From an uncultured delta proteobacterium (GTDB lineage Bacteria; Desulfobacterota; Desulfobacteria; Desulfobacterales; SG8-13): DNA of 64,000 bases. The DNA lies in NCBI GenBank assembly GCA_963848135.1, contig CAWKCK010000003.1:744001-808000 (forward strand), written 5' to 3'. Below are positions 1 through 6,000 of the stretch, one piece after another. Each line of letters opens with the position of its first letter. The first letter of the stretch is position 1. Position numbers: made by a program.

Positions 1-3000
1 CGCCTTAAGCCTCTCTACCGCCGCATTCGAGAAATAACCGGGTATCCGGAGTAATAACCGACTGGGGGGTCATACATCTGGGGGGTCACACATCGGCAGT
101 CGCCCTATATTGTGCATTTCCGGCCTCTATCCGCAATCTTTACAAAAATTCACGCTTGTGCGATAAAATTGGTTTGCCATCACCGTCGGTGCGGCCGCGA
201 ATTTCAAGAATACTGCTCCATGCATTCAAAATGGCGCTCTCATGCTCCTGGAACTTTCCATCCGCAATTTTGCCATAATCGATGATCTGAGAATTCACTT
301 TTCAGATGGACTCACCATTCTAAGCGGTGAAACCGGTGCTGGAAAATCGATCCTCATCAACGCCGTCAACCTGCTTCTTGGCAGTCGGGCGTCAGCGACT
401 TTGATCCGGACCGGTTGCAAGGCCGCCGAGCTGGAGGCCCTGTTTAAATTACCACCGGACAGCAAGGCCGCCATAACCTTGGCTGAAAATGGTTACCCTT
501 CCGAAGAGGCTCTATTGATCCGGCGGATCATTTCACGCAGAGAAAGCAATAGAATCTATATCGGCGACCGCTTGGCGACAATGCAGTTGCTCGGCGCCGT
601 CACCGAAAACCTGGCCAGTATTTCCGGGCAGCACGCCCATCAGAACCTTCTCAAAGATGAACAGCACCTGTTAATCCTCGATAAATTCGGGGGCCTGTTG
701 CCCCTGCGCCTGGCGCATGTCGACTGTTATCGTCAAGTGCTGCCGCAGATGGAACGAGTGAACAAGCTCAAATCGCTCAAAAACCGCCAGGCGCAGCAAA
801 GCGAATTGGCGCAATTTCAGAAAAAGGAAATTGAAGAAGCCTGCCTAAAGAAAGAAGAGGACATCGCGCTTGAACAGGAGCGCAGCCGGCTTAAAAACAG
901 CGAGTTTTTGTCCCAGGCGGTGTATCAGTCCATCGAAGAACTTTACAGCCGCCACGGATCAGTTGTCGAGCAATTGGCTGCTGTGCGTCACAATTTAGAC
1001 AAGGCCGCTCGAATAGATACCGTCTTGACGCCCAGGCTTGAGTCCTTGTCAGAAATATCTTTTCACCTTGAGGATCTGGTCGCAGATCTCAGATCTTATC
1101 TTAAAAACGTCCAGACGGATGACAGCCGGTTGGAGGCGGTGGAAGAGCGGCTGGATTTGATCAACAAGCTCAAACGTAAATACGGCGAATCGCTGGGCGA
1201 CGTTTTTATGCATCTTGATACCATTTCCCGGCAATTATCTGAACTTGGAAACCTCGATGGAGAAATTGCCGAGGCAGAAGAAACGCTATCGATACTGCAT
1301 AAACGACTGGCTGACCTGTCAACCCGTCTCTCGCAGGCGCGGGGGGCAGCGGCCGCGGGGTTGGCTGGAAAAGTAGAAGCTGAATTGGCAAGCCTGAGCA
1401 TGCCCCAGACGCGATTCGAGGTGGCGATACGTCGCCTCCCGGTTGAAGAACCGACCGCTTCTTGCCTGCAGATTGACGGTATGCAGATTAATGAAACCGG
1501 TGTCGATCGTGTAACTTTCAAAATCGCCCCGAATATCGGCGAGGACCTCAAACCGTTGGCCGCCATTGCATCCGGTGGTGAACTGTCCCGAATTGTACTG
1601 GCCTTAAAAGCCATATTGGCGGCAACTGAAACGGTAGAGACTGTCATTTTCGATGAAGTTGATGCCGGAATCGGCGGTGGGACGGCAGAAGTCGTGGGTG
1701 TCAAGCTTTTAGAGCTGGCCCGCCACCACCAGGTCCTCTGCATCACCCACCTACCGCAAATAGCCAAGTTCGGTGAACACCATTTTGGCATCTCAAAACA
1801 GGTCGTTAACGGTCGGACCCTGACGGTTATCCATCCGTTGGATAATAAGGGACGCGTCGAAGAGATCGCCCGTATGCTTGGTGGTGTCGACATTACGGCC
1901 ACAACATTAAATCATGCCCGGGAACTATTGAAGCGCTGAGCGTGATGTCTGTCAGGTGCACATGGCGATGTGCCCTGTCACGCCTTCAGCCGCTTGACAA
2001 GCACGATTATATAAAATATATTTCTCCTTTTAGCAAATATTTCAAATTAAAGGAATGAGTGATGCCAATATTTGAATTCAAATGTTCAAAGTGTTTTGAA
2101 TGTTTTGAAATCCTGATCATGAAGGAAAATGATTCTGTCGAAATGTGTTGTCCGAAATGTGGTGCTGAAGATTTCGAGCGTATTCTAAGCTGCACCAATT
2201 TTGCAGTGAATTCCGGATCAGGTGTCAATAAAAGCACCAAAACTGAGACGCGGCAATGTTCGGGGGGGTCCTGCTCTACACTCGAGATTCCCGGACCATC
2301 GCGTTAATACACCAAGTTTGCCCATGCCGCCCTGCCAGCGCGTCCGTGCATTTCACTACGACTTCAGGTACTGCCAACGGTGAATATAAGGCGCCCTGAC
2401 GGCTGATAGCACTCCGTGAGTGCGGGCCCAAAAAGTCTGATCTGATCACCTGCCATGCAGCAAATCCATAAACAGGAAAAAGAACAGTTTAAAAAACTAT
2501 TCACCCAGGAGCATATTGACCGTTTTGAAGAGCGTTTCAAGATCCTTGAGGCATTTCTGAAAACCGAGCAACATGTTACCGAAGCAGAGCTGCGGGAGTG
2601 TCTTCAGAGGGATAGCGTTGACTTTTCAAAAGAATTCATCCATGAAACCCTGGTTCTGATGTGCCGTTTCGGCTTTGCCCGAAAGAACCGGTTTAATAAT
2701 GGCCAGGTTCGATATGAGCACCACCATATCGGTCATCATCACGATCACATGATTTGCACCAAGTGCAAAAATATTGTCGAGTTCCGTAACGATCAGATAG
2801 AAACGCTGCAATTAAAGATCGCTGCCGAATTCGGGTTCCATGTGCTTCAACATAAAATGGAACTCTATGGAATTTGTACCGACTGCCTGAAAGATCGGGA
2901 GCAGTTGATGTCGCTTGTCAATGCAAGACAGGGGGAACAGTTAATTATCAGAGAGATCAACGGCGGCGCCGGGGCCCGGATGCGTTTGTTGACAATGGGG

Positions 3001-6000
3001 CTTAGAGTCGGCGATCCTATCGAAATAATTACCAATCAGAACAAAAGCCAAGTCGTGATCGCGGCCGACTTCAATCGGTATGCGCTCGGGTATGGACTGG
3101 CAGAGAAGATTCTTGTGGAACTGATACAGCATTAGTGCTGAAAAGGGGAATGCGGAAAGAAGCACAATTGCAGGGATAAACAGGGTGACCGACAGACTTC
3201 CGTCATACATACGTCTCATCCAAGACAACAGGATAGCAGATAGAATCCAGGCAACCAGGAAAATTATGCGTGCATGCACTCTTTGCCCCCGGGAGTGTCG
3301 AATCGATCGCATCGCCGGTCAGACGGGTATCTGCAAAACCGGTGCAAATGCCTGGGTCTCAAGCGCCAGTCCTCACTTTGGTGAAGAAGCGCCCCTGGTA
3401 GGAACAAATGGATCCGGCACCATATTCTTCACCCATTGTAATCTGATGTGCACTTTTTGCCAAAACTACGACATCAGCCATCAGGGGATTGGACAAGAGG
3501 TCACTGACGTGCAGTTGGCCGCAATGATGATTGAGCTGCAGGGGATGGGCTGCCACAACATCAATTTTGTCACGCCTTCCCATGTCATACCGCAGATCCT
3601 CGAGGCACTCCTCATTGCCGTTGAAGACGGTTTGAGGGTGCCCTTGATATACAACAGCGGCGGTTATGACAGTATCGAGACACTGAAACTGACCGAAGAC
3701 GTTTTCGATATCTACATGCCCGATTTTAAATTCTGGGATTCCCGGATTGCCGCCAAAACCTGTGACGCCGCCGACTATCCGGCGGTTGCCCGCCAAGCGA
3801 TCCGGGAGATGCATCGACAGGTTGGTGACCTGGTTATCAATGACAACGGGATTGCCAGCCGCGGGTTGTTGGTGCGCCACCTCATTCTTCCCCGTGGGTT
3901 GGCCGGTACAAGAGATATCATGCGTTTTATCGCCAATGAAATCTCACCCGACACATATGTGAATCTCATGTCTCAATACAGACCCTGCGGTCGGGCCGCC
4001 GATATACAATCGCTGGCAGCCAGACCCACGGCGGATGACTTTTACGAAGCCCGTAAGGCCGCGGCAGAAGAAGGGCTTCAGCGCCTCGATCGTCCACGAC
4101 GCGCTTTGGGGTTTCATTGAGCGGACACCCTCAACAAAAAAAATATTTGATCTAACTTATGAATAAAATATACGCCGTCGGCGATATTCACGGATGCTAC
4201 GACAAACTCATGGATTTGATGGACAAAATCGACATTGACTTCGAATCCGACACGCTTGTATTCCTTGGTGATTACATCGATCGGGGGCCACAATCTTTTG
4301 AGGTCGTCGAGTATCTTGCCGATCTGAAATTGAAACATACCAATACGGTCTTTCTGAAGGGCAATCATGAAGAAATGCTGGAGAAATACCTCTCGGGCGA
4401 TGACCGGCTCACCTATCTGGTCAACGGCGGACAGCAAACACTGGAAAGTTACATGAACCGCCCCCGGGAAGAGGGTGAGCCCCCGATTCCCCGTAAGCAT
4501 CTCGATTTTTACAGCAGCCTCAGGATTTTCTACGAAACAGAAAATTACATCTTTGTACATGCAGGATTGAAAAATAAAGTGCCAATCGAGAGTCAGAAAA
4601 CCGAGGATCTCCTTTGGATTCGGAAGCGTTTCATTCAATCCAAATATGATTTCGGCAAGATGGTTGTGTTCGGTCACACCCCGCTGCACGAACCGTTGCT
4701 CTTACCAAATAAAATAGGTATTGATACGGGTGCCGTATACGGTAACAAGCTCACATGCATTCGGTTGCCGGAACTGGTATTTTACACAATTTAACTCGGA
4801 AAGTTCTTTAAATATCCGGACGATAAGTAGGCAGCGGGCAATCAGGCATTTTGGGTGAATATAGATGAAGTATTATGCCTTGGTTAGTTTTCTATTCTTG
4901 TCCCTTTTCAGTGCAACGGCATTGGCCGAGCGTCTTGCAATTACCGGCAGTATTGCCAATATCCGCTCTGGTCCGGGGGCCGCACACGATGTGATCTGGA
5001 AAGTGCAACGCTACTATCCCTTTGAGGTTATAAAAAAAGAAGGGAGCTGGATCCAGTTTCGAGATTTTGAGAATGATGTCGGCTGGGTTCATGATACTCT
5101 GACGGGGAAAATTCAAACCGTTATTACCAACAAACCGCAATGCAACATCCGCCAGGGACCCGGGACCCAGTATGAAATCGTATTTACCGTCGAAAACGGT
5201 GTACCCTTCAAGGTATTGGATCGCCAAGGCGACTGGTTGCATATCGAGCATGCGGATGGTGACCGGGGGTGGGTCCACTCCTCGTTGGTGTGGTAACAAT
5301 TCGATTTATCTCATCATGAGAGGCGGCGGCCATTGTTACCTGCGGGCCTGAAAGATATTCTACAATACGCGTGTGAATTCAAAGACGGATCGATTCATGG
5401 AAGTTAGGGAAAAGTTAAAATCTGAAAATAAATTGATCGTTGGTGTCGGATCGGCCCTGGTGGATATTCTTTGCAATGAAGATGACGCCTTTCTCGAGCA
5501 AACCGGTGCGGCCAAGGGGGGCATGACCTTAGTAGACAGGGCGTTCATCGAGAATACCCTTTCGCGGGCGTCCGGCAGCCCTTCGATTGTACCCGGTGGG
5601 TCGGCGTGCAACACCGTGGTCGGTGTCGGAAAGCTGGGCGGTCAGGCCCGATTTGTCGGTAAATGTGGCAACGGTACTTGGGGCCAGCTGTTCCGAGAGG
5701 ACCTTGCTAAGAACAACGTGGATCCGGTGCTTTTTCCTTCCGATTCCCCCACCGGCCGGGTACTGTCGATAATCACACCGGATGCCCAGCGATCGATGTT
5801 TACCTACCTGGGAGCTTCCTCAGAAACACAACCGGGAGAATTGACCAACGGCTGTTTCAATAAGGCCGCTGTCGTCCACATTGAAGGTTATCTGCTCTTC
5901 AATCCGGAGCTTATTATGACTGCCGTTAGCGCCGCTCGTCAGAGTGGTGCACTGGTTTCACTGGACCTGGCCAGCTATACGGTTGTCGAAGAATCCAGGG

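What a model noticed while it worked through the whole genome (the two positions that open the first line are those of the whole stretch)
2455..3135. Fur-family regulator with a C-terminal FeoA (SH3-like) domain
g01541 (226 aa) is a Fur-family metalloregulator. Its FUR domain (26-138) has the His-rich site HHHIGHHHDH and the two CxxC pairs. It carries an extra C-terminal FeoA domain (152-222). That domain is otherwise known as the stand-alone partner of FeoB and as the third domain of DtxR/IdeR-type repressors. The genome also has four ordinary Fur paralogs, a DtxR-type repressor and two stand-alone FeoA genes. Fur-FeoA is a conserved Desulfobacterales protein.
Evidence so far: - pfam.tsv: FUR (E 1.5e-21) and FeoA (E 6e-14) on one protein; list of FUR/FeoA/Fe_dep_repress genes. 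- search_genomes over 21 Desulfobacterales: 13 genomes (this one included) have a match at E<=1e-25. All 13 cover residues 1-3 to 220-226 in one open frame, at 49-63% identity. - Paper search: 4 papers listed, none describes it.
(Added by a program. Inside this text positions count along the whole contig: contig position 744,001 is position 1 of the stretch shown here. "Call 12" and the like, gene names such as g00115 and contig names such as C1 are that model's own, and its searches are not shown. The text may have been shortened before it was handed on; [...] marks where a part breaks off. The agent that wrote the report below was given it as the finding of a first reader that could run no searches.)

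Follow-up and report, generated by a model that had tools for sequence, protein, structure and literature searches.

The report
Fur-like iron sensor fused to FeoA
This gene encodes a conserved fusion of a Fur-type metal-sensing domain and a FeoA domain that evolved inside ferrous-iron (feoAB) transporter operons, keeps every metal-binding residue, has lost the residues ordinary Fur uses to read DNA, and so is probably an iron-sensing accessory of the Feo system, not a classical repressor.

Summary
Window 2455-3135 (+) is a 226-aa ORF with a FUR domain (E 3.8e-21) and a FeoA domain (E 1.5e-13). It carries HHHIGHHHDH and two CxxC pairs.

- 146 of 201 genomes of the order have a full-length match.
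- About 49 further genomes of the phylum do too, and a few MAGs of other phyla.

Three things change the interpretation:
- **feo linkage.** In 27 of 70 loci, feoA-feoB follows the gene on the same strand, often with a plain fur gene just upstream. The window's lineage has lost that linkage.
- **Metal sites kept, DNA-reading residues lost.** The metal ligands are nearly invariant. The residues canonical Fur uses to read DNA (MgFur Lys15, Tyr56, Arg57) are Asp22, His63 and Glu64 here. They are replaced in 83 of 87 family representatives, where this helix varies far more than in plain Fur and is on average acidic.
- **Further fusions.** Relatives add a second FeoA domain, a complete DtxR DNA-binding core, or a probable FeoB-associated membrane anchor (weak match).

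Best reading (confidence 0.45): a Fur-derived iron sensor acting on the Feo system through protein contacts. Main rival (0.3): a repressor with a new DNA specificity. Nothing was tested biochemically.

The parts
1994..2022 (+). Sigma-70-like promoter (TTGACA, 17 nt, TATATT) upstream of the zinc-ribbon gene; probable start of the transcription unit that holds the Fur-FeoA gene
   Evidence: 11 of 12 hexamer matches. The region as a whole has no more promoter-like sites than shuffles (5 found against a mean of 4.6); a TTGAC[AT] word lies upstream of the zinc-ribbon gene, or of the Fur-FeoA gene where that is missing, in 23 of 30 orthologous loci, read as CTTGACA with an AT-rich -10 region in most. 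This is a consensus match only; no transcript ends were measured.
2059..2307 (+). Small Zn_ribbon_8 (FmdB-like) protein gene, the conserved upstream neighbour of Fur-FeoA within the order; role unknown
   Evidence: PF09723, E 2.8e-10; present directly upstream in 26 of 30 loci of the order; of the 40 further loci only L078 has it; one contig of an RNA library covers 2053-2313 with one differing letter.
2455..3135 (+). Fur-FeoA gene (226 aa plus stop)
   Evidence: AlphaFold2 model, mean pLDDT 90.6, pTM 0.64.
2455..2709 (+). Residues 1-85: Fur-type winged-helix domain in which the canonical DNA-reading residues are replaced (Asp22, Phe24, Glu25, His63, Glu64)
   Evidence: Foldseek matches to the solved Fur structures 2xig, 5nbc and 4raz.
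2710..2895 (+). Residues 86-147: Fur dimerisation and metal-binding domain with HHHIGHHHDH (nt 2719-2748), CxxC 101-104 and CxxC 141-144
   Evidence: Glu88, His96, Asp97, His98, Cys101, Cys104, Glu109, His133, Cys141 and Cys144 are invariant or nearly so.
2908..3120 (+). Residues 152-222: FeoA (SH3-like) domain of the fused FeoA-I type
   Evidence: PF04023. FeoA structure 3e19_B, TM-score for the target 0.89, rmsd 1.2 over 72 columns; forms a clade apart from stand-alone FeoA (SH-like support 98).

Best explanation
The protein is a Fur-derived metal sensor fused to a FeoA-type SH3 domain. It arose in, and in many lineages still sits in, a fur / fur-feoA / feoA / feoB operon.

The Fur half keeps the structural Zn(Cys)4 site and the regulatory His/Glu sites, so it most likely still binds Fe2+ (or Mn2+/Zn2+) and closes on metal binding. 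Its winged helix has lost the residues that canonical Fur uses to read DNA.

I therefore read it as an iron-sensing accessory subunit of the Feo ferrous-iron uptake system. It would report cytosolic iron through protein contacts made by its FeoA-I domain and its altered winged helix. Likely partners are FeoB, the FeoA-II protein, or the system's regulators. I do not read it as a classical operator-binding repressor.

Shown here:
- the architecture and its conservation;
- the feo-operon linkage in relatives;
- the intact metal ligands;
- the replaced DNA-reading residues;
- the further fusions.

Inferred: metal binding, loss of DNA binding, the identity of the partner, and the direction of control (for example feedback inhibition of uptake at high iron).

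In this genome the gene has been separated from feoAB. It lies between a zinc-ribbon gene and a radical-SAM gene. The orthologous feoA2-feoB2 pair is on another contig.
For: 1. Gene neighbourhood.
- feoB lies 5-670 bp downstream on the same strand in 27 of 70 loci examined (one of the 27 is the unfused locus L073).
- In a partly overlapping set it does so in 26 of 54 full-length loci. That set includes MAGs labelled Nitrospirae, Sumerlaeota and Cloacimonadota.
- Locus L078 has zinc-ribbon / Fur-FeoA / feoA / feoB, with a partial match to the radical-SAM gene also in the locus. Its order was not printed; the same-strand loci L087 and L089 show Fur-FeoA / feoB / radical SAM.
- A plain FUR gene lies just upstream on the same strand in 8 of 40 wider loci and divergently in 4 more. 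A canonical regulator is thus often already present.

2. Metal ligands in 87 representatives of 50%-identity clusters: His40 86/87, Glu88 85, His96 86, Asp97 83, His98 87, the four Cys 87, Glu109 79, His133 83.

3. DNA-reading residues.
- In Magnetospirillum Fur, Lys15, Tyr56 and Arg57 read DNA; Y56A binds weakly and R57A not at all (PMC4506495, passages read).
- HMMER aligns Campylobacter Fur's a-t-v-y-r-t-l with the family's e-f-v-e-e-t-l.
- In 68 Fur-FeoA proteins against 15 plain Furs taken from complete genomic ORFs: position 22 is Asp in 42/68 (plain Arg/Lys 14/15); position 63 is never among the five commonest residues as Tyr (plain Tyr 14/15); position 64 is Glu/Asp in 52/68 and Arg is not among the five commonest (plain Arg 15/15).
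- Only 4 of 87 representatives keep the aromatic-Arg pair (Tyr-Arg in three, Phe-Arg in one).
- Columns not used to define the groups (83 fused against 44 plain): position 22 basic 0.14 vs 0.93; position 24 Thr/Ser 29/83 vs 43/44; position 27 Arg 26/83 vs 42/44; position 60 acidic 0.43 vs 0.02; position 61 mostly Phe/Leu/Asp vs Thr/Ser 44/44.
- The recognition helix has entropy 2.74 vs 1.45 bits. Pairwise identity is 0.23 vs 0.50 for that helix, but 0.44 vs 0.38 for the metal domain. Mean net charge of residues 1-85 is -3.5 vs +2.8.

4. Further fusions.
- Fur-FeoA-FeoA in L029, L037, L061, L064, L065, L075, L076, P0122 and P0123.
- DtxR DNA-binding and dimerisation domains in front of Fur-FeoA in P0201, P0208, P0210 and P0238.
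- A transmembrane helix plus a Cys-rich FeoB_associated-like segment in front of Fur-FeoA in P0221 (weak: 24.1 bits, cut-off 27).

5. The fused FeoA domain is a separate paralogue. In the FeoA tree a branch with SH-like support 98 separates two groups. One holds the 68 first-position fused domains. The other holds 19 of the 20 stand-alone FeoAs plus all 6 second-position domains.
Against: - No experiment exists. Loss of DNA binding is inferred from sequence only. A different recognition mode is not excluded: the window protein has a basic stretch (Arg71, Arg76, Lys77, Arg79, Arg86) at the end of the recognition helix and in the wing.
- The comparison groups were separated by the Tyr-Arg motif. 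Columns 63 and 64 are circular there. The unbiased comparison is.
- The trees rest on 145 and 77 columns, were built with FastTree, and many forks are unresolved.
- In the window's own genome the gene is not next to feoAB, so the Feo link is by orthology only.
- The fused FeoA-I domain has diverged from the FeoA next to feoB. It may not bind FeoB and could act within the same chain, as the SH3-like domain of DtxR does.
- Four representatives with an intact aromatic-Arg pair at these positions show that a DNA-binding Fur with a FeoA domain is also viable.
Confidence: 0.45

Rival explanations
1. It is a true metal-dependent transcriptional repressor that reads a new kind of operator with a remodelled recognition helix and wing. 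The FeoA domain acts within the same chain, like the third (SH3-like) domain of DtxR/IdeR, tuning metal activation or dimerisation.
For: - The complete Fur fold and all metal ligands are kept.
- The Fur part of the AlphaFold2 model superposes on closed, metal-bound Fur: 2xig_B with TM-score for the target 0.81 and rmsd 2.4, 4raz_A with 0.80. It fits poorly on apo forms: 4ray_A rmsd 14.1, 4ets 15-16.
- Arg27 is kept in the window protein, and Arg71, Arg76, Lys77 and Arg79 form a basic stretch.
- Domain order matches DtxR: winged helix, metal/dimer domain, SH3-like domain.
- Four family representatives keep the canonical aromatic-Arg pair.
- Palindromes lie next to the gene in some relatives: L050, L051, L057, L063, and L015/L016/L020.
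Against: - The positions that read DNA in canonical Fur are acidic or variable across the family, and no other position is consistently basic (highest basic share 0.49).
- The recognition helix varies far more than in plain Fur, while the metal domain is more conserved.
- No conserved operator-like motif was seen upstream of the zinc-ribbon / Fur-FeoA unit in 30 loci.
- A canonical fur, or a fused DtxR DNA-binding core, often accompanies the gene.
Confidence: 0.3
2. It modulates another metalloregulator. Either it forms mixed dimers with the neighbouring plain Fur through the conserved dimerisation domain, or it serves as a detachable third domain for a two-domain DtxR-type repressor.
For: - A plain fur gene is adjacent in 12 of 40 wider loci.
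- The dimerisation domain is the best-conserved part.
- Four representative clusters have the DtxR core covalently joined to Fur-FeoA.
- This genome's only DtxR-type protein has two domains and no FeoA domain. It lies divergent from feoA1-feoB1, with a perfect 18-bp palindrome between them.
- Boxes of the same type flank fur-feoA / feoB in L057 and L063.
Against: - The neighbouring plain Furs form a separate clade with a different His motif: Cys at the position of Asp97 in 9 of the 11 plain Furs next to Fur-FeoA.
- No contact was predicted or measured.
- Within the order the gene usually has no fur or dtxR neighbour.
Confidence: 0.15
3. It is a decaying or functionless Fur paralogue whose DNA-binding domain is drifting.
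For: The winged-helix part evolves fast.
Against: - Open frames without stops in 146 of 201 genomes of the order and in several phyla.
- Metal ligands and the FeoA core are invariant.
- The fold is predicted with confidence.
Confidence: 0.03

Closest known systems
Canonical Fur (solved examples: Helicobacter pylori 2xig, Campylobacter jejuni 4ets/6d57, Magnetospirillum gryphiswaldense 4raz/4rb3)
   Same: Same fold, with an N-terminal winged helix and a C-terminal metal/dimer domain. Same Cys4 site and His/Glu ligands. Profile match E 1.6e-30 to 6d57. Foldseek TM-score for the target 0.81 to 2xig.
   Different: It has an added C-terminal FeoA domain. The residues equivalent to Lys15, Tyr56 and Arg57 are Asp22, His63 and Glu64. 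Scores against all NCBIfam Fur, PerR and Zur equivalog models are far below their cut-offs (best 62.9 bits against 200).
DtxR/IdeR/MntR-type repressors with a C-terminal SH3-like (Pfam FeoA) domain, including Porphyromonas gingivalis MntR with twin FeoA domains (PMC4805248, abstract seen in the search listing)
   Same: The order of modules: winged helix, metal-binding dimerisation domain, then one or two FeoA-type domains. Some relatives join the DtxR core directly to Fur-FeoA.
   Different: The first two domains belong to the Fur family, not the Fe_dep_repress family. They are unrelated in sequence. That the DtxR SH3-like domain donates metal ligands and binds a proline-rich linker is recalled from memory and was not checked here.
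FeoA, the small SH3-like partner of FeoB, stand-alone or fused to FeoB as in Bacteroides fragilis (PMC8980893, title and abstract start seen)
   Same: The C-terminal 71 residues match PF04023 end to end and superpose on FeoA structure 3e19. Relatives are encoded directly upstream of feoA-feoB.
   Different: It is fused to a Fur domain, not to FeoB. It forms a separate clade (FeoA-I) from the FeoA next to feoB. It lacks that protein's 'YAPLKDP' stretch (sequences).
FeoC, the small protein that binds the N-terminal domain of FeoB in Gammaproteobacteria (PMC8749426, passages read)
   Same: A possible functional analogy. FeoC is a small cytoplasmic feo-operon protein thought to regulate Feo-mediated uptake, with a conserved Cys-rich motif (passages read). 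That it has a winged-helix fold is recalled, not read: the word does not occur in that paper's main text.
   Different: There is no sequence relation, no FeoC family match, and the metal site and taxa differ. The analogy is an inference.

Membership tests
Fur family (PF01475) | Two-domain fold: N-terminal winged helix plus C-terminal alpha/beta dimerisation domain | tested here: met
   Pfam FUR E 3.8e-21 over residues 26-138. AlphaFold2 mean pLDDT 90.6. Foldseek 2xig_B TM-score for the target 0.81, rmsd 2.4 over 142 columns.
Fur family (PF01475) | Structural Zn site made of two CxxC pairs | tested here: met
   Cys101, Cys104, Cys141 and Cys144 are present and invariant in 87 of 87 representatives. 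Zinc binding itself was not measured.
Fur family (PF01475) | Regulatory metal ligands (His in the winged helix; Glu and His in the HHDH region; Glu and His in the dimer domain) | tested here: met
   His40, Glu88, His96, Asp97, His98, Glu109 and His133 sit in the ligand columns and are conserved in 79-87 of 87 representatives. The metal bound is unknown.
Fur family (PF01475) | DNA-reading residues of loop L1 and helix alpha-4 (Lys15, Tyr56, Arg57 of Magnetospirillum Fur; PMC4506495) | tested here: not met
   Asp22, His63 and Glu64 in the window protein. The aromatic-Arg pair is absent in 83 of 87 representatives.
Fur family (PF01475) | Metal-dependent binding to an operator | not testable with these tools
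   No conserved operator was found upstream of the unit in 30 loci. That does not settle the question.
FeoA (PF04023) | SH3-like barrel of about 75 residues matching the family profile | tested here: met
   E 1.5e-13, profile positions 1-73 of 74. 3e19_B TM-score for the target 0.89, rmsd 1.2.
FeoA (PF04023) | Encoded with feoB | tested here: inconclusive
   Not so in the window, where the next genes are radical SAM and a phosphoesterase. It is so in 27 of 70 related loci. Own feoB genes lie on C2 and C12.
FeoA (PF04023) | Physical contact with FeoB | not testable with these tools
DtxR/IdeR family | Fe_dep_repress DNA-binding domain and Fe_dep_repr_C dimerisation domain | tested here: not met
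   Neither family matches this protein. Both are present in the relatives P0201, P0208, P0210 and P0238, in front of Fur-FeoA.
DtxR/IdeR family | C-terminal SH3-like (FeoA) domain | tested here: met

The most novel reading that the evidence does not exclude
A member of the Fur superfamily has given up DNA binding and works as an allosteric iron-sensing subunit of a transporter. On binding Fe2+ it would close and, through its FeoA-I domain, switch FeoB (or the FeoA-II / FeoB pair) off or on. This would be post-translational feedback control of ferrous-iron uptake, and a direct handle on the unsolved question of what FeoA domains do.
Probability: 0.3. Interest if true: 0.8.

Novelty: new variant of a known kind. 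Interest (0 to 1): 0.62.

Why it matters
FeoB is the main ferrous-iron importer of anaerobes, and the role of FeoA remains unclear. The mBio 2022 survey says the meaning of multiple FeoA proteins in one operon 'merits further study' (PMC8749426, passage read).

This family joins a FeoA domain covalently to a well-understood iron sensor. It is present in most genomes of a large order of sulfate reducers. That gives a concrete, testable hypothesis for how Feo activity is coupled to cytosolic iron.

It would also show that the Fur fold can be reused as a sensor without DNA binding. This bears on automatic annotation: these proteins are at present named 'Fur family transcriptional regulator' or 'transcriptional repressor'. 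It also bears on regulon reconstructions that count them as repressors.

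Tried and rejected
- **Complex prediction.** FeoA domain (residues 148-226, alignment A1) with the N-terminal 270 residues of the genome's FeoB2 (alignment A2). Result: no answer, scores 0.00 and 0.01, controls not run. This is evidence neither for nor against binding.
- **Operator search.** I looked for a conserved operator upstream of the zinc-ribbon / Fur-FeoA unit in 30 loci. Only the promoter hexamers and AT-rich sequence recur. I claim no motif.
- **Genome scan with the delta-proteobacterial FUR box.** I scanned the genome with TGAAAATNATTTTCA from PMC545781. 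It gave 88 sites with at most 2 mismatches and no evident grouping that I could judge without annotation. I dropped this.
- **Structured RNA in the 147-nt spacer before the gene.** Rfam returned only a sub-threshold CRISPR-repeat match on the other strand (E 0.035, 23.3 bits against 35). Folding gave z = +0.97. Nothing there.
- **Expression.** One metatranscriptome run held 6% of the sampled words. Its contigs cover 2053-2313 (the zinc-ribbon gene) and short pieces within 3547-3741, and do not cover the Fur-FeoA gene. Absence of cover shows nothing.
- **The unfused locus L073 as ancestor.** L073 has fur / feoA / feoA / feoB. I first took it as the ancestor of the family. Its Fur keeps the canonical DNA-reading residues and groups with plain Furs next to P0249. 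It is better read as a parallel arrangement from which fusions arise repeatedly.

Full report
**1. The observation**

Window 2455-3135 (+) is an open frame of 226 codons.
- Pfam places a FUR domain on residues 26-138 (E 3.8e-21). It places a FeoA domain on residues 152-222, matching profile positions 1-73 of 74 (E 1.5e-13).
- The sequence shows HHHIGHHHDH at residues 89-98 and CxxC pairs at 101-104 and 141-144.
- NCBIfam's Fur, PerR and Zur equivalog models all match far below their cut-offs (best 62.9 bits against 200). The protein is therefore no ordinary member of any named subfamily.
- The AlphaFold2 model built on a 35-row alignment is confident: mean pLDDT 90.6, no segment under 50. Its pTM of 0.64 fits domains whose mutual placement is uncertain.
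- Foldseek finds solved Fur structures for the first 140-150 residues: 2xig_B, TM-score for the target 0.81, rmsd 2.4. It finds FeoA for the last 72: 3e19_B, 0.89, rmsd 1.2. The best-ranked rows shown each cover only one of the two domains, and no chain among the 33 sequence matches covers both.
There are six FUR matches: this gene, four full paralogues, and a fragment at a contig end. There are three FeoA matches, two FeoB genes, and one two-domain DtxR-type gene.

**2. Distribution**

A word-indexed search found 2052 proteins at E <= 1e-3. The best 120 almost all carry FUR plus FeoA and are 221-244 residues long. Where named, they are called only 'Fur family' or 'transcriptional repressor'.
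- In the order, 146 of the 201 genomes searched have a match at E <= 1e-60 with no stops. Every row shown spans residues 1-6 to 219-226, except one that spans 36-224. Three more have a full-length match near 1e-40 in a longer frame.
- In 401 genomes of the phylum I count about 59 full-length matches. About 49 lie outside the order, at 31-47% identity. The remaining matches are plain Furs.
- Named records include Desulfoluna limicola ASN36, Desulfonema limicola, Desulfotignum, Desulfobacula, Desulfarculaceae and Thermodesulfatator autotrophicus S606.
- Full-length matches also occur in MAGs labelled Nitrospirae, Sumerlaeota and Cloacimonadota.
- An exhaustive search of 1.84 billion cluster representatives gave 986 hits at E <= 1e-10. 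Of the best 150, 87 hold all three parts of the protein.
- The ESM Atlas has 12 clusters of 50 or more members with FUR plus FeoA, mostly Thermodesulfobacteriota.

**3. Surroundings**

In the window the order of genes is:
- recN, then a promoter-like site (TTGACA, 17 nt, TATATT; 1994-2022);
- a small Zn_ribbon_8 gene (2059-2307);
- the Fur-FeoA gene;
- a radical-SAM gene (3185-4120);
- a metallophosphoesterase gene (4159-4794);
- a secreted double-SH3 protein, a PfkB kinase and a TPR protein.

Among the 30 closest loci of the order (1.5 kb of flank each), the zinc-ribbon gene is directly upstream in 26. The radical-SAM gene is downstream in 19.

The other loci show what the window lacks.
- In 9 of these 30, and in 27 of all 70 loci examined, feoB follows on the same strand 5-670 bp after the Fur-FeoA stop. 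Usually a small feoA lies between (Pfam). The 70 loci are the 30 closest plus 40 stretches that I chose from the more distant rows. One of the 27 is the unfused locus L073.
- Locus L078 has zinc ribbon / Fur-FeoA / feoA / feoB, with a partial radical-SAM match also in the locus; its order was not printed. Loci L087 and L089 show Fur-FeoA / feoB / radical SAM on one strand. The window's lineage therefore lost or moved feoAB from that slot.
- The genome's FeoB2 on contig C2 is 70-76% identical to those neighbours.
- In a second, partly overlapping set, 26 of 54 full-length loci have feoB downstream on the same strand. These include the three MAGs from other phyla, with gaps of 14-160 bp.
- A plain fur gene lies just upstream on the same strand in 8 of the 40 wider loci (L042, L043, L046, L048, L049, L052, L061, L075). 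It lies divergently in 4 more (L058, L069, L071, L072).

**4. The two halves evolve differently**

All metal ligands of Fur are kept. In 87 representatives the counts are: His40 86, Glu88 85, His96 86, Asp97 83, His98 87, the four cysteines 87, Glu109 79, His133 83.

The DNA-reading residues are not kept.
- In the Magnetospirillum Fur-DNA structures, Lys15 reads the minor groove and Tyr56 and Arg57 read bases. Y56A binds weakly and R57A not at all. The authors call these residues highly conserved in Fur proteins (PMC4506495, passages).
- HMMER aligns Campylobacter Fur's 'atvyrtl' with the family consensus 'efveetl', and its 'lkyTkqR' with 'ldrveeR'.
- I compared 68 Fur-FeoA proteins with 15 plain Furs taken as complete ORFs from the same loci and from this genome:

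| Position | Fur-FeoA (68) | Plain Fur (15) |
|---|---|---|
| 22 | Asp in 42 | Arg/Lys in 14 |
| 63 | Arg 31, Lys 6, then Ala, Glu, Ser; Tyr not among the five commonest | Tyr in 14 |
| 64 | Glu/Asp in 52; Arg not among the five commonest | Arg in 15 |

- The window protein has Asp22, His63 and Glu64.
- Among the 87 representatives only four keep an aromatic-Arg pair.
- Columns that were not used to define the groups show the same pattern (83 fused against 44 plain):

| Position | Fur-FeoA (83) | Plain Fur (44) |
|---|---|---|
| 22, basic | 0.14 | 0.93 |
| 24, Thr/Ser | 29/83 | 43/44 |
| 27, Arg | 26/83 | 42/44 |
| 60, acidic | 0.43 | 0.02 |
| 61 | mostly Phe/Leu/Asp | Thr/Ser 44/44 |
| 67 | acidic 0.40 | basic 0.48 |

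- No position of the winged helix is basic in more than 0.49 of the fused proteins.
- The recognition helix has an entropy of 2.74 bits against 1.45 in plain Fur, and a pairwise identity of 0.23 against 0.50. The metal domain is more conserved than in plain Fur (0.44 against 0.38). Mean net charge of residues 1-85 is -3.5 against +2.8.
- Caveat: the plain group was chosen by the Tyr-Arg motif, to keep out truncated family members. Columns 63 and 64 are circular there.

**5. Origin**

A FastTree of the Fur parts (145 columns, weak support) splits the rows into two sides, with SH-like support 86.
- One side of 84 rows holds 77 fused proteins, 5 fragments and 2 ungrouped rows, and no plain Fur.
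- The other side holds all 44 plain Furs, the 4 fused proteins that keep the aromatic-Arg pair, and 7 other fused proteins.

So there was one main fusion lineage, to which the window protein belongs, plus a few separate fusions.

In a tree of FeoA domains (77 columns), a branch with SH-like support 98 separates two groups.
- One group holds the 68 first-position fused domains, plus the first feoA of L073 on a long branch.
- The other holds 19 of the 20 stand-alone FeoAs, including both of this genome, and all 6 second-position domains.

The fused domain is therefore a separate paralogue (FeoA-I). The FeoA next to feoB (FeoA-II) is the ordinary one.

L073 carries fur / feoA / feoA / feoB unfused, with a canonical Fur. 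This is the kind of arrangement from which such fusions can arise.

**6. Further fusions**

- Fur-FeoA-FeoA proteins of 315-357 residues occur in L029, L037, L061, L064, L065, L075, L076, P0122 and P0123. Where feoB follows, it begins 5-446 bp after the stop; L076 has none in the locus.
- Four representatives (P0201, P0208, P0210, P0238) carry the DtxR DNA-binding and dimerisation domains in front of Fur-FeoA.
- P0221 carries a transmembrane helix and a CGGCGGCGGSC segment that weakly matches FeoB_associated (24.1 bits, cut-off 27), again in front of Fur-FeoA.

A family that repeatedly gains a proven DNA-binding core, or a membrane anchor linked to FeoB, fits a sensor module better than an autonomous repressor.

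**7. Reading**

I conclude that the protein is a Fur-derived metal sensor tied to the Feo system. It most likely signals through protein contacts and not through an operator.
- Shown: the architecture, conservation, operon linkage in relatives, intact ligands, replaced DNA-reading residues, and further fusions.
- Inferred: that it binds Fe2+, that it does not bind DNA, and what it touches.
- The main rival is a repressor with a remodelled recognition surface whose FeoA domain acts in the same chain, as in DtxR. The complete fold, the closed conformation of the model, a basic stretch at residues 71-86 of the window protein, and palindromes near the gene in some relatives keep that reading alive.
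- A third reading is that it modulates the neighbouring Fur or the two-domain DtxR-type repressor.

**8. Literature**

Six full-text searches found no paper that describes a Fur-FeoA protein.
- The 'Fur-feoA' hits concern Fur bound to the feoAB1 operator.
- The 2022 survey of Feo evolution says only that 'FeoA has an additional domain' in some instances (PMC8749426, passages). I could not see its figshare tables, which may list the architecture.
- The 2004 regulon reconstruction in delta-proteobacteria does not mention it (PMC545781, passages).
- The architecture is visible in automatic annotation. What is new here is the feo-operon origin, the loss of the DNA-reading residues, and the further fusions.

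**9. Verdict**

This is a new variant of a known kind. Interest 0.62.

Noticed in passing
own genome, contig C12:95104-96014 (outside the window); locus L166: The genome's only DtxR-type gene (170 aa, two domains, no FeoA domain) is divergent from feoA1-feoB1. The spacer holds a perfect 18-bp palindrome, AGTTAGGTATACCTAACT, overlapping a TTGACA promoter. This is a likely operator for that repressor.
   Followed up: partly
L057 (after the Fur-FeoA stop) and L063 (before the start and after the stop): Boxes of the same type (G/ATTAG, 6 nt, CTAAC) flank the fur-feoA / feoB unit in two genomes of another family of the phylum. The protein that binds them is unknown.
   Followed up: no
L050, L051, L073 upstream regions; L050 between fur-feoA and feoA: Inverted repeats of the form TAATTG...CAATTA, with Fur-box-like 7-1-7 cores, lie in front of fur-feoA and of feoA-feoB. 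They are candidate sites for the neighbouring plain Fur.
   Followed up: no
window 2059-2307 (+): A small Zn_ribbon_8 (FmdB-like) gene is the fixed upstream neighbour of Fur-FeoA in 26 of 30 loci of the order. Of the 40 more distant loci examined, only L078 (also in the order) has it. A contig from an RNA library covers 2053-2313, almost exactly this gene. Its role is unknown.
   Followed up: partly
window 3185-7128 (+): The genes after Fur-FeoA are radical SAM (PflX-like by recall), metallophosphoesterase, a double-SH3_4 protein (its N-terminus looks like a signal peptide by eye, not tested), a PfkB kinase and a TPR_21-like protein. They form a syntenic backbone. In L077 the PfkB and TPR genes follow Fur-FeoA directly. 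In L064 and L076 the SH3_4 gene follows the feo genes. Adjacency in the window therefore need not mean a shared function.
   Followed up: partly
P0143, P0198, P0228, P0235: Proteins of 292-336 residues with two FUR domains in tandem (single-chain Fur 'dimers') turned up among the plain Fur hits.
   Followed up: no
plain fur genes next to Fur-FeoA (L042, L043, L046, L049, L052, L058, L061, L069, L075): These neighbouring Furs have Cys where Fur-FeoA and most Furs have Asp97 (HHCH in place of HHDH), and they form their own clade.
   Followed up: no
window residue 198 of the protein (nt 3046-3048): The window protein has Ser where 99% of 68 relatives have Gly, in the FeoA domain.
   Followed up: no
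window 2308-2454: The 147-nt spacer before the Fur-FeoA start has no evident Shine-Dalgarno sequence, no Rfam match and no unusual fold (z +0.97). The spacer length varies from 2 to 393 nt among relatives.
   Followed up: yes
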